This document shows, piece by piece, positions 1 through 62,344 of a stretch of 64,000 nucleotides of DNA (its first letter is position 1; each line of letters starts with the position of its first letter). The stretch is taken from NCBI GenBank assembly GCA_964455085.1, contig CAYVYJ010000004.1, positions 22,714 to 86,713 of the forward strand. The letters are read 5' to 3'. A program made the position numbers and the translations under genes. The notes under the pieces were generated by a model. The model did not search any database, was not told the DNA's origin, and was given only the letters and a program-made list of their open reading frames with translations. The DNA is from an uncultured Planctomycetia bacterium (GTDB lineage: Bacteria > Omnitrophota > Gorgyraeia > Duberdicusellales > 4484-171).

Positions 1-604
1 TAATTGCTTTTTTATCCTTTAAGGTATCAAAATAACTTATCCTAAACTTTTCTACCCGGAAGTCAAAATCATCTAAGTGGGTAATTACCAGGATAAACAC
101 CAGAAGACTTAAGCTAGCCGGTATCAGATAAAGTAGCAGGGGGAAACTGGCAAAGAATCCACTCAAAAAAACACTGATTAAGTTTGAAAGATAGGAGAGA
201 GTGAAAAATATCCCAATATACTTTGCTTTATCTCTAGTTGGGATAACCTTACCTATAGTAATAAGCACCAGTGGTACGAAGCTACAACCAAAACAACCCA
301 TTAAAAATCTAAATAGGAAAGCTTCAGTGATACTCTTGGAAAGTGAAAAAAACAAAGCGGTCAGAAAGAATCCCAGAGTTGTAAAAAGAAGTATCTTTCT
401 TACCTTGACTATCCGGGTAAAAGGAGCCCAGATGAGAGCAAATACTCCGTAAGGAAGCATATAGAGCCAGGTGAGCGGTAAGGCCGCGTTCTTGGTTATC
501 CCAAAATAGATTGCGATTGACGGTATTAAAGCAGCCATGGCGGCAACACCGAAAGAAACTGCAAAAAACATCAGACAAAAGATATAGAAACTTAACTTAG
601 GCAT
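1..604 (-). CDS. MFS-type transporter, N-terminal ~200 aa; 3' end runs off the window edge
   Basis: Hand translation of the minus strand from the ATG at 604-602 gives MPKLSFYIFCLMFFAVSFGVAAMAALIPSIAIYFG...FTRIVKVRKILLF... with no stop through position 1. It has multiple hydrophobic TM segments and an MFS motif-A-like loop. GGAG RBS upstream; start overlaps stop of upstream gene (ATGCCTAA). Absent from the ORF track because no stop lies in the window. Confidence 0.6.
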   Translation of the reverse strand, partial: MPKLSFYIFCLMFFAVSFGVAAMAALIPSIAIYFGITKNAALPLTWLYMLPYGVFALIWAPFTRIVKVRKILLFTTLGFFLTALFFSLSKSITEAFLFRFLMGCFGCSFVPLVLITIGKVIPTRDKAKYIGIFFTLSYLSNLISVFLSGFFASFPLLLYLIPASLSLLVFILVITHLDDFDFRVEKFRISYFDTLKDKKAI

Positions 605-1072: not shown

Positions 1073-1894
1073 TTAATAATCATCTACCACACCAACTACC
1101 CTTGCCCAGGCAGCACCGGTCTTCTTTATTCTTACTGGAAAACAAATAACCTTAAACCCCGAATCCGGCAACTTAGCCAAATTAGCTAATCTTTCAATAT
1201 GGATAAACTCTCGCTTTCTACCATGAAAATGAGCCGGCCAAAGATGTTTAGGATCTTTTGTTTTCAAAAAATCCTCGATCATAAATTTATAAGGTCGATC
1301 AATACCCATAGTATCTACTCCAAATATTTTTACCCCCCGATCAAGAAGGTAGTCAATCGCTGAAGGGTCTACTCCTGGATAATCAGAGAAATACTTGGGG
1401 CTTCCGAAAAGACGATCTGAGCCGGTATAAAAGAAAACAATATTCAAAGGCTTAAGTAAATAATCAATCTTTCCCAAAGCTTCTTCTATATCTTCACTTG
1501 TAATGACCTGATCAGCCCTTTTATTGCTAAAGTCAAGCTTGACTGCCTCTTGATAACACCACTCAAGCGGGATCTCATCAGCAGTCTTCGATGGTTTACC
1601 TTCAGACTTACTTCCGTAGTGAAAAGAATAGTCAAGATGAGTTCCACTATGAACTGAGGAATGCACTATCTCTAAAGACAGAAACTCCTGATCAGGTAAA
1701 TCTTCCTTCCTGACTATCCGTTGTCCCAGGAGATGCCTAATTTTACCCTTAAAAGTTTTACCCATCAAAACTCTATTCAATTTGGCAATTCCATCCTTAT
1801 GAGACACCCGTTCAATCTTTAAATCATGTACCTCAAAGGCTTTATCGTCAATCAATAAGCTTAAATCTACTATCTTCATGTCTCTATTGGTCAA
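1073..1894 (-). CDS. Cyclase-family protein (PF04199-like; kynurenine formamidase/putative polyketide cyclase fold)
   Basis: The HSGTHLDYSFH motif matches the HxGTHxDxPxH metal-binding signature of the 'putative cyclase' family. Confidence 0.7.
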   Translation of the reverse strand: MTNRDMKIVDLSLLIDDKAFEVHDLKIERVSHKDGIAKLNRVLMGKTFKGKIRHLLGQRIVRKEDLPDQEFLSLEIVHSSVHSGTHLDYSFHYGSKSEGKPSKTADEIPLEWCYQEAVKLDFSNKRADQVITSEDIEEALGKIDYLLKPLNIVFFYTGSDRLFGSPKYFSDYPGVDPSAIDYLLDRGVKIFGVDTMGIDRPYKFMIEDFLKTKDPKHLWPAHFHGRKREFIHIERLANLAKLPDSGFKVICFPVRIKKTGAAWARVVGVVDDY

Positions 1895-1897
1895 TAC

Positions 1898-2140
1898 TTA
1901 GCTTAAACCACCCTTTTTCTTATTAATCACCTCAACAATCTCAGCCAGGGTAGAGAATTTTGTAATCTCATTAGTTTCAATCTTAATACCAAAATGCTTA
2001 TTAAAAGAAACTACTAACTCTACCATCTCGGTTGAATCAACTCCGATAGAGTCATACAACTTTTGATCTTCTGCCAGCTCCTCTTTTCCGATATCCAATG
2101 CATCGCTGATAATATTAATAACCTCACTTTTTGTGTCCAT
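1898..2140 (-). CDS. Acyl carrier protein
   Basis: 80 aa, acidic, with the GVDSTEMVELV phosphopantetheine-attachment motif (DSxxxxEL). Confidence 0.85.
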   Translation of the reverse strand: MDTKSEVINIISDALDIGKEELAEDQKLYDSIGVDSTEMVELVVSFNKHFGIKIETNEITKFSTLAEIVEVINKKKGGLS

Positions 2141-2167: not shown

Positions 2168-3400
2168 TTATTTTTCTACTGCTAGCACAACATTTATTCC
2201 GCCCCGCCCTCTGGCAATAATCAGGGCTTTAGCGATTTCTTTCTCTTTAGGTTTATTGGGAGTATAATTTAAATCGCAATAAGGGTCTCTCATCTCCTGG
2301 TTAATCGTTGGCAGAACGATTGAATGTTTCATTGAAAAAAGTGTAACGATTAAATCTAAAGCGCTCTGGGCCCCGAGGAGATTTCCGTACATGCTCTTAG
2401 GAGCACTGAGAGCAATTTTGTTTATTGGCTTCCCAAATACATTTTTTAAAGCTGTTGTCTCAAGATAATCCCCCATTACAGTTGCTTCACCGTCTAAGCA
2501 GATATAATCTATGTCTTGCCTGTTCCAAGAAGCGTCTTTTAAGCATTCTTCTATTGCGTATTCTAACTCCTCTGATTTAGGACTGTACCTTGAATAGTGT
2601 TGCCCGTCGGAAGAGAAACCAATTCCTTTTATAAATCCATAAATCGGTACGCCTCTTTTTTTAGCTTTAGATTCTTTCTCCAAAATAACTATTCCTGAAC
2701 CTTCGCCTAAAACAAAGCCATCCCGGTTTAAATCATAAGGTTTATAAGCTTCTTTAGGGTTAAGATTATTCTTAGATAAATTACCGCAGGTATTTGCCGA
2801 CAATAAAGCATAGGGAGTAATCGGTGCCTCCATGCCCCCGGCTAAGACAAAATCTACTCGTTCTTGAGCGATTACTTTAGAACCATACCACAAACTCAAA
2901 GCTGAAGAAGCTTTATCGGCGACAATGGTCTTGCTATAACCTTTAAAGCCATAGTATATGGTAATTTGTCCCTGGGGCGCTGCCGGAAACCAAGCTGAAG
3001 CCATGTAGGGAGAAATTCCTTCTCTTCCTTCAATATACATATCACGCAATTCAGTCTCAGCAAAAAGCCAACCACCAATAGCATTCCCCATAAATACACC
3101 AACCCTATCCTTATCAATCTTTGCTAAATCCATCCCGGCATCAGAGATAGCCTGTTCACTGGCAACTAAAGCCATGTGAGAGAATACATCTATCTTTTTA
3201 ATCAGTCTTCCAGAAAGGTGGCTGTAGTGGTCAAGTTCACGGACCTGGCCGGCAATCCGGGAAGGATATAGGGAAGCATTGAATCTTTTAATCTCGCTGA
3301 TAAAAGAATCACATTTTTTAAGATTAGCCCAAAAAGTTTCCTTCTTTAACCCACAAGGCGAAACTACGCCGATACCGGTTATTGCAACTCTCTGGCTCAT
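2168..3400 (-). CDS. Ketosynthase beta / chain-length-factor-like subunit (KS-beta, no active-site Cys)
   Basis: Thiolase-fold KS homolog. The position that aligns with the KS-alpha TVSTGCTAGTDSL motif reads TIVADKASSALSL, so the catalytic Cys is absent. It sits immediately downstream of KS-alpha and upstream of the ACP, as in type II PKS minimal cassettes. Confidence 0.8.
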   Translation of the reverse strand: MSQRVAITGIGVVSPCGLKKETFWANLKKCDSFISEIKRFNASLYPSRIAGQVRELDHYSHLSGRLIKKIDVFSHMALVASEQAISDAGMDLAKIDKDRVGVFMGNAIGGWLFAETELRDMYIEGREGISPYMASAWFPAAPQGQITIYYGFKGYSKTIVADKASSALSLWYGSKVIAQERVDFVLAGGMEAPITPYALLSANTCGNLSKNNLNPKEAYKPYDLNRDGFVLGEGSGIVILEKESKAKKRGVPIYGFIKGIGFSSDGQHYSRYSPKSEELEYAIEECLKDASWNRQDIDYICLDGEATVMGDYLETTALKNVFGKPINKIALSAPKSMYGNLLGAQSALDLIVTLFSMKHSIVLPTINQEMRDPYCDLNYTPNKPKEKEIAKALIIARGRGGINVVLAVEK

Positions 3401-3403
3401 TAA

Positions 3404-4651
3404 TTACCTCCACCTCTTAAATACAATCGAAGAATGGATTCCCGAAAATCCACTACTGGTCTTAAGTATATACTCTGGCATTAATTTCCTCTTTTTATTG
3501 GGAATATAATCTAAATCGCACTTAGGATCAAGCTCTTCCTGATTAATCGTCGGCGGAAGATATCCTTTTTCAAAAATCATACAACATAATACGCTCTCTA
3601 CAGCATTGGCTGCAGCTAAAGGGTGCCCAATCATCGATTTAATCGAACTTATGGGAACTTTATAAGCAAAATCACCTAAAACCTTTTTGTAAGCATCAGT
3701 CTCAAAAACATCATTCTGCCTGGTAGATGAACCATGAGCATTTATATAAGAGATATCTTCATTCTTTATGCCGGCATTTGCTATTGCTTCTCGCATACAG
3801 CGGGCCATTGGTTCACCGTCTGAGGGCAAATCAGTCATATGGTAAGCATTGCAGCTTGTCCCATAACCAAGAATCTCAGTATAGATATGAGCACCACGTC
3901 GCCTAGCATGTTCTAACTCCTCCAGAATTAAAATACCGGCAGCCTCGCTGATAACAAAACCATTCCGCTTATTATCAAAGGGACGACTTGCTTTATGAGG
4001 CTGGTCATTATTCTTAGCCAAAACACTTACCACATCAAAAGCCCCGAAGGTAATCGGGGTAACCGGAGCTTCACTGGCTCCGGCAATAATTAAATCTTGC
4101 CTTCCTTCCTGAATAAGTTCATAAGCAAACCCTAAGGAATCAGTTCCAGCAGTACAGCCAGTGGAAACTGTACAATTGATTCCCTTGGTCCCATGGATTG
4201 CCCCTATCTCGGCACTGGGAGTATTAAACATAGCAGCATCATAAAGATAAGGTCGCCCTTTGCGGGGATCAATAGGGTTCTTACCCCAATCAGTAACTAA
4301 TAAAAACTCTTCTTCCATGAACCGGGTTCCGCAAATTGCATTAGCTAAAACTACGCCACATCTGTGGCGGTCCAACCTATTAAAATCTAATTTTGCATCT
4401 TCCACTGCACCAGCGGCCGCAGCAATTCCAAACTGAACATATCTATCCATGCGTTTATGCTCAACTATGCCAAACTTTAAGGGATCGAAGCCTAAATCCT
4501 GGGAAGCAATTTTCGAAAGAAACAAACTCACATCAAAATTCTCAACCTTCTCGACACAAGGCTTACCGGCAATTAGATTATTGTAAAACTCATTCCTATC
4601 TTCTCCGGCTGCAGAGATAACTCCGATTCCGGTAACTACTACTCTTTTCAA
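3404..4651 (-). CDS. Type II PKS ketosynthase alpha
   Basis: VSTGCTAGTD active-site Cys motif. NAHGSSTRQND matches the type II PKS KS-alpha HGSGTRQND signature and differs from FabF HGTSTPAGD. Also has the SMIGHPLAAA His motif and N-terminal VVVTGIGV. Confidence 0.9.
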   Translation of the reverse strand: MKRVVVTGIGVISAAGEDRNEFYNNLIAGKPCVEKVENFDVSLFLSKIASQDLGFDPLKFGIVEHKRMDRYVQFGIAAAAGAVEDAKLDFNRLDRHRCGVVLANAICGTRFMEEEFLLVTDWGKNPIDPRKGRPYLYDAAMFNTPSAEIGAIHGTKGINCTVSTGCTAGTDSLGFAYELIQEGRQDLIIAGASEAPVTPITFGAFDVVSVLAKNNDQPHKASRPFDNKRNGFVISEAAGILILEELEHARRRGAHIYTEILGYGTSCNAYHMTDLPSDGEPMARCMREAIANAGIKNEDISYINAHGSSTRQNDVFETDAYKKVLGDFAYKVPISSIKSMIGHPLAAANAVESVLCCMIFEKGYLPPTINQEELDPKCDLDYIPNKKRKLMPEYILKTSSGFSGIHSSIVFKRWR

Positions 4652-4680: not shown

Positions 4681-5262
4681 CTATTCTTTTCTGCTCACTT
4701 TAAATATAATATTCCCGCCATCAGGACAGGTTACTGTATCTATAGAATTCTGATTATCCATAAAGGGGAATTTTGCACCAAAATTAAGCGCAAAAAGGGC
4801 TGGAAAAGCCGTGTGCCAGGCAGCTCCACAGAATCCAGGAATACACTTAAGGCCTTCCATGTCCCACTTATCACCAACCTTATAGTTATAAAAACACTTG
4901 CCCTTAGCTTTAACAACCTCGATGACCATCTGTTTTGGTTTCGGACCCTTATAGCTAGGATCTTTAGGAATATTATCAATCTCACCTTGCTTATTAAATA
5001 TCTCGGCCTTAAATTCTAATTTTCCACCATCAGGACAAGTCACCAATAAAGACCGTTGGTTATCCATAAAAGGGAATTTAGCATTGAAACTTAAGGCATA
5101 AATTACTGGAAAGAGAGCATGAGCTAAGCCTAAACAAAAGTGTTTAGGTGGGTGGGTAAAATCCTCCAAAATAAGTTCTGTGCCGATTTTATAACCATGA
5201 TAACAGTGGCCGGAAACTGCATTTACAGTAAGTTTTAGTTTAGGAAAAGGAGTATCAACCAT
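4681..5262 (-). CDS. Hypothetical protein made of two tandem ~90-aa Cys/His-rich repeats (possibly TIGR04076-like)
   Basis: Internal duplication: C-x2-H-x-Y-x-x-G ... C-x-G ... A-x-x-P ... FNAKFPFMDNQ ... V-T-CPDGG ... F-K appears twice (residues ~19-100 and ~113-190). Confidence 0.5.
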   Translation of the reverse strand: MVDTPFPKLKLTVNAVSGHCYHGYKIGTELILEDFTHPPKHFCLGLAHALFPVIYALSFNAKFPFMDNQRSLLVTCPDGGKLEFKAEIFNKQGEIDNIPKDPSYKGPKPKQMVIEVVKAKGKCFYNYKVGDKWDMEGLKCIPGFCGAAWHTAFPALFALNFGAKFPFMDNQNSIDTVTCPDGGNIIFKVSRKE

Positions 5263-5274
5263 TTTACACCATCC

Positions 5275-6285
5275 TTATTGTTGATTCTTGAGACCGGCCA
5301 TTTCTAATAACAAGTCTTGTTTACTTATGAACGAGCCGGTCTCCTCAACCTTATGCACCAACTCAACGATTCTTTTATTTATCGGAGCCTTAAGATTGTT
5401 CTCATCAGCTAAACTGACAATTTCTCCGTTGATATAGTCAATTTCTGATCGTTTGTTATTCCTTATACTTTGGAGTATTGAACCATAGAGCGGCTCTTTG
5501 CTTAATGAGTTTATAACCTGGGAAAAAATATTAGCGGCCTGATCTCTCGGCATTGAGACCAATCCTTCAATTCTGGTTTTAGGATAAGTGGGTAAATCAG
5601 CTAGTTTTATACCACTGGTTTTGATAATATTAAATGCCTCTTGATTTAATTCTATTGCTAATTTTGCAAAATTTAAGTCGCTAAATGCCTCCTGCATCGA
5701 TAAACCTAAGACAGCCGGGATACAATTATTTAGATTGATCAACAACTTAAGGTATTTAGCTCCTTTAATTTGATTGGAGATTACAGTATTAAATGCAGAA
5801 CTTAGATAATCGCTTACTGCCTCGATATTAGATACTTCTTGATTAAAGATATTGCCTAATATTAAATTGCCCTCAAAATTATGAACTATCCGGTTCGGCC
5901 GATAAAATGTTGCCCCAAACATTACAATTCCGGTGATGATCTTATTTTGGGGGAAATATTCTTTAAGAATATAATCGGCCCTTACCCCATTTTGGGTGCT
6001 AACAACCGTCGCCTCTTTTAAATACTTAAAATTATCCTTTATCAATTTCTCTAAATCATTGACCTTGCTAGAGAGAATAACTAAATCTACCCTTTCCTGG
6101 AGACTGGTTTGGGCCTTAACTTTAAAGTTATGAGAGCCTCGGATGCCATCGATCAACAAACCTTCTTTTTCCAGAGTTTTTTTCTGGTAATCCTTAACTA
6201 TGCCGATGACCTCAGAAGACTTTTTAGAAAGATACCCTAAGAATAATCCACCAATTGCCCCGCAACCTAAAACTGCTATTTTCAT
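5275..6285 (-). CDS. 2-dehydropantoate 2-reductase (ApbA/PanE) family NAD(P)H oxidoreductase
   Basis: N-terminal MKIAVLGCGAIGG Rossmann motif, ~336 aa, typical length and architecture of ketopantoate-reductase-family proteins. Confidence 0.65.
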   Translation of the reverse strand: MKIAVLGCGAIGGLFLGYLSKKSSEVIGIVKDYQKKTLEKEGLLIDGIRGSHNFKVKAQTSLQERVDLVILSSKVNDLEKLIKDNFKYLKEATVVSTQNGVRADYILKEYFPQNKIITGIVMFGATFYRPNRIVHNFEGNLILGNIFNQEVSNIEAVSDYLSSAFNTVISNQIKGAKYLKLLINLNNCIPAVLGLSMQEAFSDLNFAKLAIELNQEAFNIIKTSGIKLADLPTYPKTRIEGLVSMPRDQAANIFSQVINSLSKEPLYGSILQSIRNNKRSEIDYINGEIVSLADENNLKAPINKRIVELVHKVEETGSFISKQDLLLEMAGLKNQQ

Positions 6286-6305: not shown

Positions 6306-6572
6306 TTATTCTCCTTTACCAATGTAAGATCGATAATCGATATTTAGCTGATTAAGTAATCTTTGGAGCATCTCTTTAAAGGCCGGAGGAACCTCTTGAA
6401 AAAAAGCAACAATTAGATCTTTATCGACAACTTCGCTAGATCCGCGGCCCTTAGCCAACTCCTCAGCTTTTTCTTTAATAAGTCGCTCGGCAATTGTTCG
6501 GTGAAATTGAGGTAGATTACTTACTATCCTATTGAACTTTTCTTTTGTCTCATCATTCCAGATAATTCCCAT
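6306..6572 (-). CDS. Small protein with a PCP_red-like domain (protochlorophyllide reductase B C-terminal-like)
   Basis: 88 aa; IWNDETKEKFNRIVSNLPQFHRTIAERLIKEKAEELAKGRG loosely matches the W..E....iP.F.R....E..A...G pattern of standalone PCP_red domains. This is a recollection-based call. Confidence 0.35.
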   Translation of the reverse strand: MGIIWNDETKEKFNRIVSNLPQFHRTIAERLIKEKAEELAKGRGSSEVVDKDLIVAFFQEVPPAFKEMLQRLLNQLNIDYRSYIGKGE

Positions 6573-6590: not shown

Positions 6591-7325
6591 TTATAACTTA
6601 TCAACAACACTAAAAGCTAAATCTGCCATCTTCATCTCAGCTTCAAAAAATCTATAGTCAGCAAATCCTAATCTACCGGTAATAAGATTATCTGATACCG
6701 CTAAGATAGCTGCCACTTTCTTATGATAAAGATTTGCTACAGTCACAAAAGGAGAAGTTACCATATCAACCGCAATTGCCCCTTTTTCAATATAAGGGTT
6801 GACTATTTCTTTGGTCTCCCTGAATAAAGCATCGGTAGTCCATACCCCTCCTTGATGAAGTGGCGCAGAGGCTTTGAAAACCTCCTCTATTTTAGAAGTT
6901 AATAGCTTATCTACTTTAGATTCAAAATTATCATCAACATAATAGCGGCTTGCGCCATCGCCTCTGATAATATCAGTAGCTAAGATGTAGTCCCCGACAT
7001 TAATATCCTCACGCAGAGCACCACAGGAGCCGAGCCGAATAAGACTATTAACCCCACCAACACACAAGAACTCAGTAACAAAAGCTGAATCCGGAGCGTA
7101 GAATCCGCCGTTACCCACGGTTATTTTTTTACCCTTATACAAGCCACTCCAGAAAGTATAACCAAGAAAGGTGAAGTTCTTGACACAATTCTCTAAACGT
7201 TCCAAACACATCTTTGCTCTGTGCTGCTGGCCGCTGACTAAAGCGATTTCACCAAAATCACCATCTTTAAACTGCAAAGAATAAAGAAGCTCTTTGGGGC
7301 TTAAATGAAGATCTCTCTGCATCAT
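6591..7325 (-). CDS. PNP/UDP-family nucleoside phosphorylase or nucleosidase-like protein
   Basis: LGSCGAL motif and flanking residues resemble DeoD/MTAN-type phosphorylase family 1. 244 aa. Confidence 0.6.
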   Translation of the reverse strand: MMQRDLHLSPKELLYSLQFKDGDFGEIALVSGQQHRAKMCLERLENCVKNFTFLGYTFWSGLYKGKKITVGNGGFYAPDSAFVTEFLCVGGVNSLIRLGSCGALREDINVGDYILATDIIRGDGASRYYVDDNFESKVDKLLTSKIEEVFKASAPLHQGGVWTTDALFRETKEIVNPYIEKGAIAVDMVTSPFVTVANLYHKKVAAILAVSDNLITGRLGFADYRFFEAEMKMADLAFSVVDKL

Positions 7326-7327
7326 GA

Positions 7328-8839
7328 TTAAGCTCCTCCTTTAACTAATTTTTGCTTATCAATTTTGCCGGTTCTATTCTTAGGTAAATCTTCTACAAAT
7401 TCAAAGTGGTGGGGAACTTTAAAGTGGGCTAGGCGTTCTTTTAAGAAGTCCTTTATTTCGTTTGTATCTAAGATTGTTTGCTGTTGGGAGACGATAAATG
7501 CTTTGGGTACCTCACCTCGTAAATTATCAGTTACACCAATAACCGCAACCTCTTTTACTTTGGGATGTTCTTGTATTTTCTCTTCCACCTCAGCCGAAAA
7601 CACTATCTCCCCGGCCACCTTAATCATATCTTTTTTCCTTCCTACTATATAATACAAACCCTCTTGGTCCTGTTTAACGATATCGCCGGTCTTAAGCCAT
7701 CCGTCTTCTCTCAACACCTCTTTAGTTAGGGCCGGTTCTTTAAAATATCCGCGCATTATCGCCTCACCCCTAACCCATAACTCTCCTCCCTCTCCCCTGC
7801 CGACACTTTCTCCAGCCTCATTAACAACCTTAGCTTCCATCTTCGAGTCAAAACCACCGATACTGGATATTTTGGCTTCATCAGACGGTGAAAAAGTATT
7901 GGGGCCTGTTGTTTCAGTCATTCCCCAACCATTTAAAACTACTGCCTTAGAACATAGTTTATGAAATCGCGCCAAAAGCTGCGGCGATGAAGGAGCACCA
8001 AAGACACCCGCAAATCGTAGCGAAGAAAGGTCAAACTTCTCATACCCTTTTAAGCAAAGAATCGCCACATACATTGCCGGAACAATGCAGAAGATAGTAA
8101 CTTTATGCCGCTGGATATTCCTTAAAAACTCTAAAGGATGAAATCTTTCCATCAGGATAAGGGAAGAAGAGAAATAAATCATCAGGAGTATATAACCTAA
8201 TCCTCCGATATGGGAAAAGGGCACGCCGCCGCATAAAAATATATCATCCCCAGATACAGCTAAGAAACGGTCGATAGTTTTAGGAGGATTATCTAAGTGT
8301 CTAAATTCTAAACTTACTCCTTTAGGGTGGCCGGTAGAGCCGGAAGTATAAAATATCGCACAAAGGTTACCCGGGTTATGTTCGATACTAATGTGATCGG
8401 GACTGGCTTGGCTTAAGACTGAATCCCAGGTTGGAAAACTCTGTAGATTCTCTGCAGCGACGATTATTTCCTTTAAACTTTTACAGCTACTCTTAATCTT
8501 TAGCAGGTCGAATCCCTTTTTGGGTTGAATCACTAAAACTTTAGTCTGGCTGTGATTGATGAAATTAATAATTTCACTCTCGGTTAACATGAAATCTAAA
8601 GGGACTATTGCTGCTTGAGCACTAAATACACCTAAGAGAGTAAATACAGCCTCAAGGCCATTAGGAAGAAACATGGCTACTTTATCTTCTGGCCTAATAC
8701 CTAAACTAAAAAGATAATTAGCCAACTTAAAAGAAGTACTTTTCAGCTCACGGAAGGTAACTATCCGATCTTGCAATACTACTGCCTGCTTCTGAGGATA
8801 ATTCTTAGCTTGCTGGTTAAGTAATTCCCGAATATTCAT
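7328..8839 (-). CDS. AMP-dependent synthetase/ligase (acyl-CoA or acyl-ACP ligase; probable starter-unit activation)
   Basis: YTSGSTGHPKGV AMP-binding core motif, 503 aa, first gene of the PKS operon. Confidence 0.85.
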   Translation of the reverse strand: MNIRELLNQQAKNYPQKQAVVLQDRIVTFRELKSTSFKLANYLFSLGIRPEDKVAMFLPNGLEAVFTLLGVFSAQAAIVPLDFMLTESEIINFINHSQTKVLVIQPKKGFDLLKIKSSCKSLKEIIVAAENLQSFPTWDSVLSQASPDHISIEHNPGNLCAIFYTSGSTGHPKGVSLEFRHLDNPPKTIDRFLAVSGDDIFLCGGVPFSHIGGLGYILLMIYFSSSLILMERFHPLEFLRNIQRHKVTIFCIVPAMYVAILCLKGYEKFDLSSLRFAGVFGAPSSPQLLARFHKLCSKAVVLNGWGMTETTGPNTFSPSDEAKISSIGGFDSKMEAKVVNEAGESVGRGEGGELWVRGEAIMRGYFKEPALTKEVLREDGWLKTGDIVKQDQEGLYYIVGRKKDMIKVAGEIVFSAEVEEKIQEHPKVKEVAVIGVTDNLRGEVPKAFIVSQQQTILDTNEIKDFLKERLAHFKVPHHFEFVEDLPKNRTGKIDKQKLVKGGA

Positions 8840-11544: not shown

Positions 11545-13542
11545 CTATCCCTCCTGGTAACGCTTTTTTAAAGATAAATCCAAAAATTCGCCTCTTAGAG
11601 GGTTATAACCATAATAAGCAATTAAAAAATAGGCGGTAGAGGCTAAAGATCCGGTTCTGTTTCCTCTAGGGGTTCGCCAACCATGGCCGGTATCAATAGA
11701 AGGACTGGAGGCATAAGGAAGACAGGGGTCTCCCCGACCAACAGGCGAAGGAGAAACTATCAACATCTTCTGTAATTCATTGAAATAAAAAAGTGCCTTT
11801 TTAAAATATTCTCCAGACTTATTAGTGTTTTTATCTTGAAAATAATCAGCCATGATCTCAAAGGCTAAAATCATCTGGGAGGTCCATTCTCCTGACACTA
11901 CACCACCTCGAGGAGCGTTCTTGGCTTTAGCAAAATCAAACCCTTCTAGCTCTACTTCGCCTCTCTTGCGCTTAAACTTTACTCCCACCTTACAATGTTT
12001 AACAGCAAACTTTAATATTGTCTCGGGATTCATTTTTAGGGTAAAAAGCTCCTCGGGGCCAAAAGCAGTTATTGACCAAGTGTAGGTATCAGTAGCAATA
12101 GTAGAATCACCTTTGCCTCTTTTTACCGGGGGACCGTAGCGAGTGTAGGAGTAGCGACAGACCCAGTTCTTTATCTTCTGGGCCGCATTTAAATACTTTT
12201 TCTCGCCACTTAACTGATAGAAGAGGTTAAAAAAACTAAAGACATCCAGATTGTGTTCTGTAGAATACCAAGACTCATCAGGACCACCCTTTATTCCGCC
12301 TTCGGCGTCCATCAACTCCAGGAGAAGATTACTTACTTCTCTTGCAATCGGTAAATACTTTTCATTACCAGTTTCCTTAGTATAACAGAGAGCAGCTAAG
12401 CCAAGCCAGGCATTCGGCCCACTATGGAGTACATACTCAAAGACGTCACCTTGAGTAAAGTAGGCATTATAAATACCCTGGCCTTCATTGATTTTCTTAA
12501 GGTAAAAATCTAGTATTTTCTCAGCTCTTTGTTTATCCCCGGAAATCAGAAATACAATCGTGGCTAAAGCTTGATCATAGGTAAAACAGATTCGGTCTAA
12601 ACTATTATCCCCTTCATAGCTAAGTATTAACCCCCTTCGCAAATCCTGACGGTTCTTTATCCAATTATACATACCCCCGATTAATTCTTGTGAAGACTTC
12701 AGCTCTTCCTGCTGAAGGCTTTCTACTTCCTCTTGGATCTTTAACGCAGCGGCTTTGTTCTCTTTTTCTTTTGCCTTTAAAAAATCGTTCTCACGCCTTA
12801 GGCTGGCTAACTCTAATCTCAGCAACGAAAGCTTCTCTTTAAGCTTCGCAGCTTCTTCCAAGTTAGCTCTATCAGCGTTTTGACTTTGAAGTAACTCATC
12901 GTACTGGCTTTGCCAAAGAATGACCTCTTTGCTCAACGAATCAATAGACTTAGTTAAATTTAATTGCCTCTCTTCAAAAAATATCTTGCTGTTAGCTTCG
13001 TTCTCTAAAATATCTTCAAGGGCTGACTTCTTCTCCAAGATACTCACATAATTACTTACTAACCGTCTATTTTTCCTCACTAAGGAGCTGGTTCGCCAGA
13101 ATAAAGAAAAAGAGAAGAATAAAAGAATGGTTATAACTCCGGTCACAACTAACGGTGTGAATTTCTTAACCAGAGCATATTTGAATAAAAATTTTGCTTT
13201 CTGATTGTCGTCTTCCATAAATCTTAAGCCTACTGTATAACGATTAAAATTCTTTAATCTTCGCTGTCTTAGCCAACTTATCTGGGCCTTTAAACAAACA
13301 GCTTGGGATTTAAAAGGTAAGTCGATGCACAGGGAGAGTTGAGCTCCCGGGTAACTTAGACGGTCGGCAAAACCCCACCAAAGGTCATTAATCAAAAGGC
13401 GGATACCGCCTTTTCCGATATCACGGGTAAATCCTTGCAGCCAAGGCGTCATCTTCTCCCCCTTAGCATCAAGGATGAAAAACTCAACCGGCAAAACAGT
13501 AGAAGTCCTTATATATCTTCGCTTATCCTTCCCTCTTTTCAT
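11545..13542 (-). CDS. PilZ domain - TM - coiled coil - glycoside-hydrolase-like (alpha/alpha-barrel-like) fusion protein
   Basis: N-terminal RRYIR ... DIGKGGIRL matches PilZ RxxxR / DxSxGG. A hydrophobic segment and a Q/E/L-rich coiled coil follow. The C-terminal ~380 aa carry Trp/Tyr-rich glycosidase-like motifs (GGPDESWYSTEHNLD). Confidence 0.5.
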   Translation of the reverse strand: MKRGKDKRRYIRTSTVLPVEFFILDAKGEKMTPWLQGFTRDIGKGGIRLLINDLWWGFADRLSYPGAQLSLCIDLPFKSQAVCLKAQISWLRQRRLKNFNRYTVGLRFMEDDNQKAKFLFKYALVKKFTPLVVTGVITILLFFSFSLFWRTSSLVRKNRRLVSNYVSILEKKSALEDILENEANSKIFFEERQLNLTKSIDSLSKEVILWQSQYDELLQSQNADRANLEEAAKLKEKLSLLRLELASLRRENDFLKAKEKENKAAALKIQEEVESLQQEELKSSQELIGGMYNWIKNRQDLRRGLILSYEGDNSLDRICFTYDQALATIVFLISGDKQRAEKILDFYLKKINEGQGIYNAYFTQGDVFEYVLHSGPNAWLGLAALCYTKETGNEKYLPIAREVSNLLLELMDAEGGIKGGPDESWYSTEHNLDVFSFFNLFYQLSGEKKYLNAAQKIKNWVCRYSYTRYGPPVKRGKGDSTIATDTYTWSITAFGPEELFTLKMNPETILKFAVKHCKVGVKFKRKRGEVELEGFDFAKAKNAPRGGVVSGEWTSQMILAFEIMADYFQDKNTNKSGEYFKKALFYFNELQKMLIVSPSPVGRGDPCLPYASSPSIDTGHGWRTPRGNRTGSLASTAYFLIAYYGYNPLRGEFLDLSLKKRYQEG

Positions 13543-35199: not shown

Positions 35200-35283
35200 G
35201 CGAGGGTGGCGGAATTGGCAGACGCACTAGCTTGAGGGGCTAACGGTAGCGATACCGTAGGGGTTCAAGTCCCCTCCCTCGCA
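35200..35283 (+). tRNA. tRNA-Leu (anticodon GAG), type II with long variable arm; no encoded CCA
   Basis: GCGAGGGTGGCGGAATTGGCAGACGC...GGGGTTCAAGTCCCCTCCCTCGCA is near-identical in architecture to E. coli tRNA-Leu. Anticodon loop TTGAGGG gives GAG. Confidence 0.85.
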
Positions 35284-38707: not shown

Positions 38708-38855
38708 ACAAAAAACAAATAAAAAAACCCCACCTTTTATCCGTTACAGGCGATCGCTATCAGTCCCTCGATATACAAGTGGGCACCGCATCATTACCGC
38801 CCAAACGATAAGAGATATTGGCTCCCTAATAAGGGTGTTGGCTGTAGCGCTCTTA

Positions 38856-38887
38856 CCTGCTGACGCAATAGGCAGGGTTTTGTTTCG
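38856..38887 (+). terminator. Plus-strand intrinsic-terminator-like hairpin (ACCTGC-N11-GCAGGGT) followed by TTTGTTTCG
   Basis: Read from sequence. It has the wrong orientation for the flanking minus-strand genes, implying a short plus-strand transcript ending here. Confidence 0.3.
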
Positions 38888-48204: not shown

Positions 48205-48282
48205 TGGTGGGCGATACAGGAGTCGAACCTGTGACATCCTCCTTGTAAGGGAGGCGCTCTAAACCAGCTGAGCTAATCGCCC
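48205..48282 (-). tRNA. tRNA-Val (anticodon TAC), CCA encoded
   Basis: Reverse complement GGGCGATTAGCTCAGCTGGTTTAGAGCGCCTCCCTTACAAGGAGGATGTCACAGGTTCGACTCCTGTATCGCCCACCA; anticodon loop CTTACAA. Confidence 0.85.
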
Positions 48283-62272: not shown

Positions 62273-62344
62273 TGTCCCCGGCAGGAATCGAACCTGCATT
62301 TTTGGCTCCGGAGGCCAACGCTCTATCCGTTGAGCTACGGGGAC
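62273..62344 (-). tRNA. tRNA-Arg (anticodon CCG), no encoded CCA
   Basis: Reverse complement GTCCCCGTAGCTCAACGGATAGAGCGTTGGCCTCCGGAGCCAAAAATGCAGGTTCGATTCCTGCCGGGGACA; anticodon loop CTCCGGA. Confidence 0.85.

What the first reader, a model, noticed from the sequence alone, without database searches (positions are those of the whole stretch)
4681..5262. Protein built from two tandem Cys/His-rich ~90-aa repeats inside the PKS operon
Both halves share C-x2-H-x-Y ... C-x-G ... FPA/VLF-A-L-xF-xAKFPFMDNQ ... V-T-CPDGG-x-I/L-x-FK. Each repeat has three conserved Cys and one His, which is consistent with metal binding. I know of no characterised function for such a module in polyketide biosynthesis. 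Its position directly upstream of KS-alpha suggests a dedicated role such as chain folding, cyclisation, redox or starter processing.
Basis: partly seen in the sequence, partly recalled or inferred. Interest (0 to 1): 0.6.

Follow-up and report, generated by a model that had tools for sequence, protein, structure and literature searches.

The report
Cysteine-rich accessory subunit of anaerobe polyketide synthase
A small protein made of two copies of an uncharacterised three-cysteine domain (family TIGR04076) is a fixed, unusually well conserved part of a polyketide-synthase gene cluster in Omnitrophota and other anaerobes, where it can be fused to the acyl carrier protein, so it looks like an unrecognised working part of that machinery.

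Summary
The ORF at 4681-5262 (minus strand, 193 aa) consists of two halves that are 45% identical (E 3e-23). Both halves match NCBIfam TIGR04076, a named family of unknown function that has no Pfam model, no solved relative and no Foldseek match.

The family has three invariant, widely spaced Cys and a Cys-Pro-Asp motif.

The window is chromosomal DNA of a Candidatus Omnitrophota bacterium. In 80 of 80 related genomes the gene lies between an ApbA/PanE-like reductase and KS-alpha, followed by CLF, ACP, an OxyN-type cyclase and a TcmN-type aromatase. In that sample it is the most conserved protein of the cluster.

Its closest relatives sit in homologous clusters from other lineages. They occur as two separate genes, as a single domain between CLF and ACP, fused to the ACP (a Bacillota MAG), or fused to the ApbA-like reductase. 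More distant family members lie outside PKS clusters and are fused to flavin-reductase or DUF362-ferredoxin modules.

Best reading: a metal-binding (probably Fe-S) pseudo-dimer that acts as a dedicated accessory subunit of an anaerobe-type type II PKS. The link to the PKS is well supported. The cofactor and the chemistry are inferred, not shown.

The parts
4681..5262 (-). ORF of 193 aa plus stop codon: a tandem TIGR04076 protein (called T4076x2 in this report)
   Evidence: ORF list and translation. NCBIfam TIGR04076 at 97.8 bits against a cutoff of 33, in 2 stretches. AlphaFold2 model with pLDDT 90 and pTM 0.85.
4996..5244 (-). Repeat 1 (residues 7-89): beta-beta-helix-beta-beta, with C20, C43, C76-P-D and H48
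   Evidence: HMMER domain at residues 7-85. DSSP on the model gives strands 9-16, 29-32, 71-75 and 82-89 and a helix at 44-58. In locus L094 the repeat-1 type is a separate 101-aa gene.
4939..4995 (-). Linker (residues 90-108), including the conserved K-G-P-x-P-K stretch
   Evidence: Conservation profile of 223 two-repeat proteins. It corresponds to the C-terminal tail of the repeat-1 gene plus the N-terminus of the repeat-2 gene where the two repeats are separate genes.
4687..4938 (-). Repeat 2 (residues 109-192): the same fold, with C123, C145, C179-P-D and H150, plus an extra C140
   Evidence: HMMER domain at residues 109-192. Single-repeat model with pLDDT 89. The closest single-domain relatives (P0136/P0497, P0137, P0150) are 44-60% identical.
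5275..6285 (-). ApbA/PanE-like NAD(P)H reductase, immediately upstream
   Evidence: Pfam ApbA plus ApbA_C, and TIGR00745 at 168.8 bits. Found upstream of T4076x2 in 78 of 80 loci. Naturally fused to T4076x2 in P0496 and P0127.
6306..6572 (-). 88-aa PCP_red/DUF2621-like protein (called s88 in this report)
   Evidence: Pfam DUF2621 at 34.6 bits, with a weak PCP_red hit. Present in 73 of 80 loci. A homologous domain is fused to the C-terminus of the cluster's B12 radical SAM enzyme in L091 and lies next to one in L095.
6591..7325 (-). Nucleoside phosphorylase-family gene (PNP_UDP_1), part of the cluster in this variant
   Evidence: Pfam. Found at this position in about a quarter of the loci.
7328..8839 (-). 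AMP-binding acyl-CoA/ACP ligase-like gene, part of the cluster in this variant
   Evidence: Pfam AMP-binding plus AMP-binding_C. Found within 10 kb upstream in 19 of 80 loci.
3404..4651 (-). KS-alpha with an intact Cys-His-His triad
   Evidence: Pfam ketoacyl-synt N and C domains. Active-site motifs TGCTAG, NAHGSST and GHPLA are present. Found about 600 bp downstream of T4076x2 in 80 of 80 loci.
2168..3400 (-). KS-beta / chain-length-factor-like subunit, lacking the Cys and both His
   Evidence: Asp-Lys replaces Gly-Cys, D-G replaces H-G, and G-N replaces G-H.
1898..2140 (-). Acyl carrier protein (pI 4.5)
   Evidence: Pfam PP-binding. The D-S-T motif is present. pI.
1073..1894 (-). PF04199 'cyclase' (OxyN type)
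   Evidence: Pfam Cyclase at 97.2 bits. Cluster architecture compared with PMC7693217.
597..1034 (-). SRPBCC polyketide cyclase/aromatase (TcmN type)
   Evidence: Pfam Polyketide_cyc at 26.7 bits against a cutoff of 23.4.
1..604 (-). MFS transporter, cut off by the end of the window. In related loci the cluster continues with an SDR ketoreductase and a B12 radical SAM enzyme.
   Evidence: Pfam MFS_1 at 62.5 bits. Synteny.

Best explanation
The ORF encodes a tandem duplication of the TIGR04076 domain.

Domain. Each repeat of about 85 aa folds as beta-beta-helix-beta-beta. Three invariant Cys lie far apart in the sequence: one after strand 1, one at the N-terminus of the helix and one after strand 3. 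The third Cys is followed by a conserved Pro-Asp. I infer that these residues hold a metal centre. The most likely candidate is an Fe-S cluster or an Fe site ligated by Cys3 plus Asp, His or an outside ligand.

Assembly. The two repeats pack as a pseudo-heterodimer. This is shown indirectly: a related cluster encodes the two repeat types as separate genes, and the AlphaFold2 model has pTM 0.85.

Role. A specific clade of the family, which includes this protein, is an obligatory accessory subunit of an anaerobe-type ('ancestral-architecture') type II PKS made of KS-alpha, a CLF with Asp-Lys/Arg at the dead active site, ACP, an OxyN-type cyclase and a TcmN-type aromatase. This association is shown by synteny and by gene fusions.

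Mechanism (inferred). The protein docks on the acidic ACP and on the ApbA-like reductase, which places its metal centre next to the ACP-tethered intermediate. There it serves as the redox or electron-transfer partner, or the substrate-activating partner, for oxygen-independent tailoring: the reductase, the B12 radical SAM enzymes, and in some clusters AFOR or DUF362 enzymes.

My confidence by step is about 0.85 that it is a dedicated PKS subunit, about 0.65 that it binds a metal, and about 0.35 that it has a redox or electron-transfer role.
For: Domain and repeat:
- The internal repeat has E 3e-23. TIGR04076 matches twice.
- The AlphaFold2 models have pLDDT 90 with pTM 0.85 for the whole protein and pLDDT 89 for a single repeat.
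- In 764 unique domains the three Cys are about 100% conserved. Pro after the third Cys is at 94% and Asp two residues after it at 89%.

Link to the PKS:
- KS-alpha is immediately downstream on the same strand in 80 of 80 genome loci. The ApbA-like gene is upstream in 78 of 80.
- The same arrangement is seen for homologs only 45-51% identical and in three metagenome loci.
- The two repeats are separate adjacent genes in L094.
- A single domain lies between CLF and ACP in L095.
- A T4076 domain is fused to the cluster's ACP in the Bacillota MAG locus L093 and in P0170.
- A complete ApbA::T4076x2 fusion of 536 aa occurs in two MAGs.
- All sampled clusters share the same unusual CLF signature, D-[KR]-A-S.
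- T4076x2 is the most conserved cluster protein in the sample: median 79% identity, against 64% for KS-alpha, 56% for CLF, 48% for ACP and 46% for ApbA.
- It is basic (pI 8.6), while the ACP has pI 4.5.

Redox or metal inference:
- Other family members are fused to a flavin-reductase domain (28 members) or to DUF362 plus two 4Fe-4S ferredoxin motifs. Proteins with three or four repeats also exist.
- The named sources are mostly lineages known from anoxic habitats. That they are anaerobes is my own knowledge.
- From my own knowledge, three ligating Cys that are distant in sequence and lack CxxC knuckles are typical of Fe-S sites such as those of IspH, NadA and IscU, not of structural zinc sites.
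- Also from my own knowledge, the flavin-reductase fusion mirrors the flavin-reductase-plus-rubredoxin architecture of Moorella Hrb. The paper is cited in PMC12288474.
Against: - No cofactor has been demonstrated. I could not read the model coordinates, so I have not verified that the three Cys are close in space.
- There are only three Cys and no conserved fourth protein ligand. The His is variable.
- ApbA/PanE enzymes transfer hydride and need no one-electron partner. An electron carrier fused to an ACP has no precedent.
- B12 radical SAM genes are absent within 10 kb in L093 and L094, so no single redox client is universal.
- One Omnitrophota paralog clade (P0121/P0394) and distant family members are not PKS-linked.
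- The conservation ranking is biased upward, because the loci were selected by similarity to this protein.
- There is no structural match to any known Fe-S fold. hhalign against IscU gives a probability of 1.2%.
Confidence: 0.5

Rival explanations
1. Non-redox adaptor or chaperone. The Cys3 site binds a structural zinc. The protein is a docking subunit that holds the ACP, or the KS-CLF, against the ApbA-like reductase or stabilises the complex. It has no chemistry of its own.
For: - Fusions to both the ACP and ApbA suggest a bridging role.
- The protein is basic and the ACP acidic.
- It is small and very highly conserved, as expected for a hub with several partners.
- ApbA-type enzymes need no electron donor (established knowledge of the PanE family).
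Against: - The three Cys are 23-34 residues apart with no CxxC or CxxH knuckle, which is atypical for structural zinc (own knowledge).
- The named sources are mostly lineages of anoxic habitats, and the flavin-reductase, DUF362-ferredoxin and multi-repeat architectures point to redox chemistry.
- Distant members occur with no ACP or KS nearby.
Confidence: 0.22
2. A new small metalloenzyme that acts directly on the ACP-bound poly-beta-ketone. It would use an open coordination site on a 3-Cys Fe-S or Zn centre in a pocket between the two repeats. Candidate reactions are chain folding or cyclisation, dehydration or reductive deoxygenation, and starter-unit priming that compensates for the CLF's missing Gln.
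For: - A 3-Cys site with no fixed fourth ligand.
- The conserved aromatic and polar loops F-P-F-M-D-N-Q are present in both repeats.
- Conservation is higher than that of the KS.
- The domain is fused to the ACP.
- The CLF has Asp-Lys/Arg instead of the Gln expected from my own knowledge of characterised CLFs.
Against: - The clusters already encode OxyN-type and TcmN-type cyclases and an SDR ketoreductase.
- The same domain occurs in many non-PKS contexts, so its basic chemistry cannot be polyketide-specific.
- A 90-aa domain offers little room for an active site.
- There is no similarity to any known cyclase family.
Confidence: 0.18
3. Incidental neighbour. It is a general small housekeeping redox protein of Omnitrophota that happens to lie beside the PKS genes and plays no part in the pathway.
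For: - The family is broad, and distant members lie in unrelated neighbourhoods.
- A two-repeat paralog in Omnitrophota WOR_2-type genomes is not next to KS genes.
- The cluster sits among housekeeping genes.
Against: - 80 of 80 loci show the same synteny, with short or overlapping intergenic gaps.
- The linkage is kept at 45-51% identity and in other lineages even though the gene order is rearranged.
- In-frame fusions exist to the ACP and to ApbA.
Confidence: 0.05

Closest known systems
NCBIfam TIGR04076 ('TIGR04076 family protein'; JGI name 'uncharacterized repeat protein')
   Same: Both repeats match the model well above the cutoff. The protein has the domain length of about 90 aa, the three invariant Cys, the CPD motif and the tendency to occur as tandem repeats.
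   Different: The family has no assigned function, no Pfam model and no structure. This protein belongs to a distinct clade with Tyr at C1+4, His at C2+5 and an F-P-F-x-[DE]-N loop. I found no published mention of that clade's linkage to KS/CLF/ACP genes.
Non-actinobacterial 'ancestral' type II PKS clusters (den, ant, clr; architecture KS-CLF-ACP-TcmN-OxyN; PMC7693217)
   Same: The surrounding cluster has KS-alpha, a catalytically dead KS-beta, an ACP, an SRPBCC (TcmN-type) aromatase, a PF04199 (OxyN-type) cyclase and an SDR ketoreductase, in an organism of a lineage known from anoxic habitats.
   Different: The text read from the den paper lists no TIGR04076 gene; whether the ant and clr clusters have one was not checked. 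Here the cluster adds T4076x2, an ApbA-like reductase, a PCP_red-like 88-aa protein and usually a B12 radical SAM enzyme. The CLF carries Asp-Lys/Arg at the active-site position, not the Gln I recall for characterised CLFs. The product is unknown.
3-Cys (+His/Asp) Fe-S sites such as CDGSH/NEET domains and IscU (an analogy only)
   Same: The ligand inventory is similar: three Cys plus a variable His or Asp. There is a Cys-(Pro)-Asp-Gly motif, a Cys at a helix N-terminus, and a small domain that works as a dimer or tandem pair (sequence; the comparison itself is from my own knowledge).
   Different: There is no detectable homology. No Pfam zf-CDGSH or NifU hit was found. hhalign against E. coli IscU gives a probability of 1.2%. 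The Cys spacing and the topology differ. The cofactor has not been demonstrated.
Flavin-reductase-plus-rubredoxin proteins (Moorella 'high molecular weight rubredoxin' Hrb)
   Same: The family member P0204 (28 cluster members) has a Flavin_Reduct domain followed by one T4076 domain. This is the same layout with T4076 in the place of rubredoxin (the Hrb architecture is from my own knowledge, and the paper is cited in PMC12288474).
   Different: This concerns a distant paralog, not the window protein. It is an analogy of architecture only.
XdhC/CoxI-family N-terminal domain (PDB 3on5, 2we7)
   Same: It is the best structural superposition found: query-normalised TM-score 0.52-0.53 for the single repeat.
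   Different: The match is not significant (E 5-10, probability 0.08, rmsd 5-6 A), and there is no sequence signal.

Membership tests
NCBIfam TIGR04076 | HMM score above the curated cutoff (33 bits) | tested here: met
   97.8 bits, E 4e-28, in two matched stretches. Relatives in other clusters score 55-116 bits.
NCBIfam TIGR04076 | Domain of about 90 aa with invariant Cys x3, Gly and Cys-Pro-Asp | tested here: met
   Both repeats carry every invariant column of the family alignments.
Type II PKS cluster (minimal PKS plus cyclases) | KS-alpha with Cys-His-His, paired with a KS-beta/CLF that lacks the catalytic Cys | tested here: met
   KS-alpha has TGCTAG, NAHGSST and GHPLA. KS-beta has ADKASS, LDGEAT and YGNLLG. 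The CLF has Lys/Arg where, from my own knowledge, characterised CLFs have Gln.
Type II PKS cluster (minimal PKS plus cyclases) | Discrete ACP plus aromatase/cyclase genes | tested here: met
   PP-binding, PF04199 Cyclase and SRPBCC Polyketide_cyc genes are present. An aromatic polyketide product has not been demonstrated.
Known polyketide cyclase/aromatase families (SRPBCC, PF04199, TcmI, cupin, SnoaL) | Sequence or fold match of the 193-aa protein to one of these families | tested here: not met
   Pfam gives nothing even at E <= 10. Foldseek against PDB gives nothing at E <= 0.001.
Ferredoxin / rubredoxin / CDGSH / NifU-IscU Fe-S families | Sequence-profile membership | tested here: not met
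   No Pfam or NCBIfam hit. A PDB profile search gives only chance hits, best E 0.07. hhalign against IscU gives a probability of 1.2%.
Ferredoxin / rubredoxin / CDGSH / NifU-IscU Fe-S families | Bound Fe or Fe-S cofactor | not testable with these tools
   This needs anaerobic purification followed by metal analysis and spectroscopy.
XdhC/CoxI N-terminal domain | Significant fold match | tested here: inconclusive

The most novel reading that the evidence does not exclude
The TIGR04076 domain is a new fold that carries a 3-Cys Fe-S centre with an open site. Its PKS-linked clade is a previously unrecognised core subunit of an ancient, strictly anaerobic lineage of type II polyketide synthases. 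It acts directly on the ACP-tethered chain, either through oxygen-independent redox tailoring or deoxygenation, or through priming that replaces the CLF's missing Gln. This would be a new enzyme class and a new piece of the 'minimal PKS'.
Probability: 0.2. Interest if true: 0.85.

Novelty: new variant of a known kind. Interest (0 to 1): 0.6.

Why it matters
Type II PKSs are thought to need only KS, CLF, ACP and a borrowed malonyl transferase, plus cyclases and reductases. Non-actinobacterial and anaerobic systems are poorly understood and hard to reconstitute.

This work identifies a conserved extra component in such systems. It is the best conserved protein of the cluster, and in some organisms it is fused to the ACP or to a reductase. 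That gives a concrete and testable reason why these 'ancestral' systems may fail when only the canonical parts are expressed.

It also gives a first functional foothold for TIGR04076, a family found in many anaerobic bacteria and archaea that has no known function, no Pfam model and no structure.

In addition, the cluster was found in 122 of the species-representative genomes scanned, almost all labelled Candidatus Omnitrophota or probably mislabelled bins, which raises the question of what its product does in these uncultured cells.

Tried and rejected
Searches that found nothing:
- Pfam on the protein and on relatives, even at E <= 10, gave no family.
- phmmer and profile hmmsearch against all PDB sequences gave only chance hits.
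- Foldseek against PDB gave no match at E <= 0.001, either for the full model or for a single-repeat model. The best superposition was the XdhC-family structure 3on5 at TM 0.52 and probability 0.08, which I judge not significant.
- Literature searches for TIGR04076, for Omnitrophota with polyketide or ketosynthase, and for anaerobe type II PKS with radical SAM found nothing that links this family to PKSs.

A narrower alignment gave only 3 loci.

Ideas tested and rejected:
- Homology to IscU, suggested by a local 'C-G-x-A' and 'C-x-D' resemblance, was rejected by hhalign at a probability of 1.2%.
- The idea that the protein always accompanies the B12 radical SAM enzyme was rejected. L093 and L094 have no such gene within 10 kb. 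The radical SAM gene near the non-PKS paralog in L090 is only 23% identical to the cluster's enzyme.
- The idea that the conserved His is a universal fourth ligand was rejected, because 19% of domains have no His at either candidate position.
Full report
**1. The observation**

The window has an ATG-to-stop ORF at 4681..5262 on the minus strand, encoding 193 aa. Its two halves align at 45% identity over 85 columns, E 3e-23.

Each half has three Cys: C20/C43/C76 in the first and C123/C145/C179 in the second. Each half also contains the motifs FP..[FY]AL.F.AKFPFMDNQ and VTCPDGG...FK.

The gene lies 12 nt downstream of an ApbA/PanE-like reductase gene and 29 nt upstream of KS-alpha, on the same strand.

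**2. What family it belongs to**

NCBIfam TIGR04076 scores 97.8 bits against a cutoff of 33, in two stretches.

Pfam has no model for it, even at E <= 10. No PDB sequence is related, either by phmmer or by a family profile. Only two papers in the library mention the family, both in passing. [quoted passage not shown]

A search of 1.84 billion representative proteins shows that the domain occurs in several forms: singly (about 90 aa), in tandem, in three or four copies, and fused to other domains.

I aligned 764 unique domains. The residue frequencies were:

| Position | Residue | Frequency |
|---|---|---|
| The three Cys | Cys | about 100% |
| After the third Cys | Pro | 94% |
| Two residues after the third Cys | Asp | 89% |
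| Four residues after the first Cys (alternative His) | His | 26% |
| Neither His position occupied | none | 19% |

The invariant set is therefore Cys3 plus the CPD motif, not Cys3-His.

**3. Structure**

AlphaFold2 with 103 aligned sequences gives a confident model: pLDDT 90 and pTM 0.85. Each repeat is beta-beta-helix-beta-beta. A single-repeat model agrees, at pLDDT 89.

The three Cys lie just after strand 1, at the helix N-terminus and just after strand 3.

**4. Organism and cluster**

The closest homologs are 78-88% identical. Nearly all come from Candidatus Omnitrophota MAGs. The rest of the window carries housekeeping genes (GatA/B, RpoD, DnaG), a 6S RNA and tRNAs, so this is chromosomal DNA.

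The neighbouring genes on the minus strand, from upstream to downstream, are:
- an AMP-binding ligase
- a nucleoside phosphorylase-family protein
- an 88-aa PCP_red/DUF2621-like protein (s88)
- the ApbA-like reductase
- T4076x2
- KS-alpha
- KS-beta
- the ACP
- a PF04199 cyclase
- an SRPBCC aromatase
- an MFS transporter, cut off by the window end

KS-alpha has an intact Cys-His-His triad. KS-beta has Asp-Lys at the Cys position and has lost both His, so it is CLF-like.

This is the KS-CLF-ACP-TcmN-OxyN layout that has been called ancestral for non-actinobacterial type II PKSs (PMC7693217). KS-CLF pairs from Candidatus Omnitrophica are already listed in a published catalogue (PMC10132072). That paper says nothing about this protein.

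**5. Is the linkage real?**

A scan of one genome per GTDB species found 122 genomes with a relative, and the best 80 were fetched. My tblastn mapping of those 80 loci gave these results:
- KS-alpha is about 600 bp downstream on the same strand in 80 of 80.
- KS-beta follows wherever the contig reaches that far.
- The ApbA-like gene is about 1 kb upstream in 78 of 80.
- s88 is present in 73 of 80.
- Most loci also have a B12 radical SAM gene, either between KS-beta and the ACP or further downstream.

In L002 the stop codon of T4076x2 overlaps the start of KS-alpha.

Across these loci T4076x2 is the most conserved protein:

| Protein | Median identity to the window protein |
|---|---|
| T4076x2 | 79% |
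| Cyclase | 70% |
| KS-alpha | 64% |
| KS-beta | 56% |
| ACP | 48% |
| ApbA-like reductase | 46% |
| s88 | 44% |

One caveat applies: the loci were chosen by similarity to T4076x2, which inflates its rank somewhat.

**6. Beyond the close relatives**

Divergent two-repeat homologs keep the linkage:
- P0122 (51% identity) sits in the same cluster, which there also carries an AFOR gene.
- P0124 (45% identity, from a high-GC organism) sits in PPTase-s86-T4076x2-KS-KS, without an ApbA-like gene.

One two-repeat paralog clade, P0121/P0394 (53% identity), is not next to KS genes.

The single-domain proteins closest to repeat 2 are all inside homologous clusters:
- In L094 the two repeat types are separate adjacent genes of 101 aa and 98 aa, lying between the ApbA-like gene and KS-alpha.
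- In L095 a single 88-aa domain lies between CLF and ACP and is followed by B12 radical SAM genes.
- In L093, from a Bacillota MAG, the domain is fused to the N-terminus of the cluster's ACP. The order there is KS-KS-[T4076-ACP]-cyclase-SRPBCC-PPTase. A second stand-alone T4076 gene precedes a KAS III gene in the same cluster.
- Three metagenome loci repeat the ApbA-T4076-KS-KS-ACP-cyclase order.
- A complete in-frame ApbA::T4076x2 fusion of 536 aa exists in two Omnitrophota MAGs.

All seven sampled clusters share the CLF signature D-[KR]-A-S.

More distant single-domain members lie in unrelated neighbourhoods. Examples are next to a BFN-domain gene and LonC, next to DUF362, and beside the Bilophila isethionate cluster.

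Other family members are fused to a flavin-reductase domain (28 members) or to DUF362 plus two ferredoxin motifs.

**7. Interpretation**

Shown:
- The protein is a tandem TIGR04076 protein.
- A clade of this family is a constant, co-transcribed and sometimes covalently fused companion of KS/CLF/ACP, and often of the ApbA-like reductase, in a coherent group of type II PKS clusters from Omnitrophota and other lineages of mostly anoxic habitats.

Inferred:
- The Cys3(+Asp/His) site binds a metal. I favour Fe-S or Fe over structural zinc, for three reasons. The ligands are far apart in sequence and lack CxxC knuckles. The named sources are mostly lineages I know as anaerobes. The fusion partners and the multi-repeat forms resemble those of small redox modules.
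- The fusions to the ACP and to ApbA, together with the basic pI (8.6, against 4.5 for the ACP), suggest that it docks on these partners and places its centre next to the tethered intermediate.

Not explained:
- Why would a hydride-transfer reductase need it?
- Which reaction does it support?
- Why is it better conserved than the KS?

The rival readings are a zinc-stabilised adaptor, a new small metalloenzyme acting on the chain, and an incidental neighbour. They are listed with their tests in the Rival explanations section. The last one is strongly disfavoured.

**8. Comparison with what is known, and novelty**

Membership in TIGR04076 is met. Membership in any cyclase, ferredoxin, rubredoxin, CDGSH or IscU family was tested and not met. 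Resemblance to 3-Cys Fe-S sites and to the flavin-reductase-plus-rubredoxin architecture is analogy only.

The family is known but uncharacterised. I did not find its PKS-dedicated clade or the ACP and ApbA fusions described in the literature searched.

I rate this a new variant of a known kind: a type II PKS with an extra conserved subunit drawn from an uncharacterised family. Interest is moderate to high. The mechanism remains open.

Noticed in passing
window 6306-6572 (-); L091 16649-18376; L095 16146-16436: The 88-aa PCP_red/DUF2621-like protein upstream of the ApbA-like gene has a homolog fused to the C-terminus of the cluster's B12 radical SAM enzyme in L091 (a 575-aa protein with a weak PCP_red hit at residues 493-540). 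Another homolog is encoded directly upstream of a B12 radical SAM gene in L095. It is probably an accessory domain of that enzyme.
   Followed up: partly
window 2168-3400 (-); L002, L091-L095: The KS-beta/CLF of every T4076-linked cluster sampled has Asp-Lys or Asp-Arg at the position of the catalytic Cys, where I recall Gln in characterised CLFs (own knowledge). It also has Asp-Gly in place of the first His. This signature may define this PKS lineage and may bear on how the chain is primed.
   Followed up: partly
L094 9680-9985 and 10001-10297: The repeat-1 type and the repeat-2 type of the protein are encoded as two separate adjacent genes (101 aa and 98 aa) between the ApbA-like gene and KS-alpha. 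The Omnitrophota protein is therefore the fused form of a heterodimer.
   Followed up: yes
L093 17161-17460, and 12561-13643: The Bacillota cluster with the T4076-ACP fusion also has a second, generic-type T4076 gene directly upstream of a KAS III gene, and a DUF362 gene. DUF362 recurs with this family. It is adjacent in L008/L009 and fused in P0184. It belongs to the same Pfam clan as the DUF2088 family of the lactate racemase (LarA) superfamily (PMC11770544).
   Followed up: partly
L090 10001-10642: A two-repeat paralog clade (P0121/P0394, about 213 aa, from Omnitrophica WOR_2-type genomes) lies between a TPR protein and a PilZ protein, not next to KS genes. One member (P0400) has a Cys-rich N-terminal extension with CxxCxxCC. 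I did not determine whether these genomes also carry the PKS-linked copy.
   Followed up: partly
L091 18366-20255; L094 3831-6136: Aldehyde:ferredoxin oxidoreductase-family (tungsten/molybdopterin) genes sit inside or beside two of the clusters. In L094 one is followed by a polyferredoxin-like gene. This hints at oxygen-independent redox tailoring.
   Followed up: no
L010, L011, L013, L014, L073, L080 (record titles): Several contigs carry clusters that are 73-88% identical to the window cluster but are labelled Planctomycetia, Methanosarcinales archaeon, Victivallales or Thermodesulfobacteriota. Given the near-identity to Omnitrophota loci, these are probably mislabelled or contaminated bins rather than horizontal transfer.
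   Followed up: no
window 38723-38881 (-); 35200-35283 (+); 48208-48282 (-); 62273-62344 (-): A 6S RNA scores just above Rfam's gathering score (49.7 against 46.4 bits), and there are three tRNA genes. The flanking genes are ordinary housekeeping genes (GatA/GatB, RpoD, DnaG, S41 protease).
   Followed up: no
window 11545-13542 (-): A 665-aa protein has only an N-terminal PilZ domain detectable, with the remaining ~550 aa unannotated. It is conserved at the same position next to the Era-like GTPase in L001.
   Followed up: no
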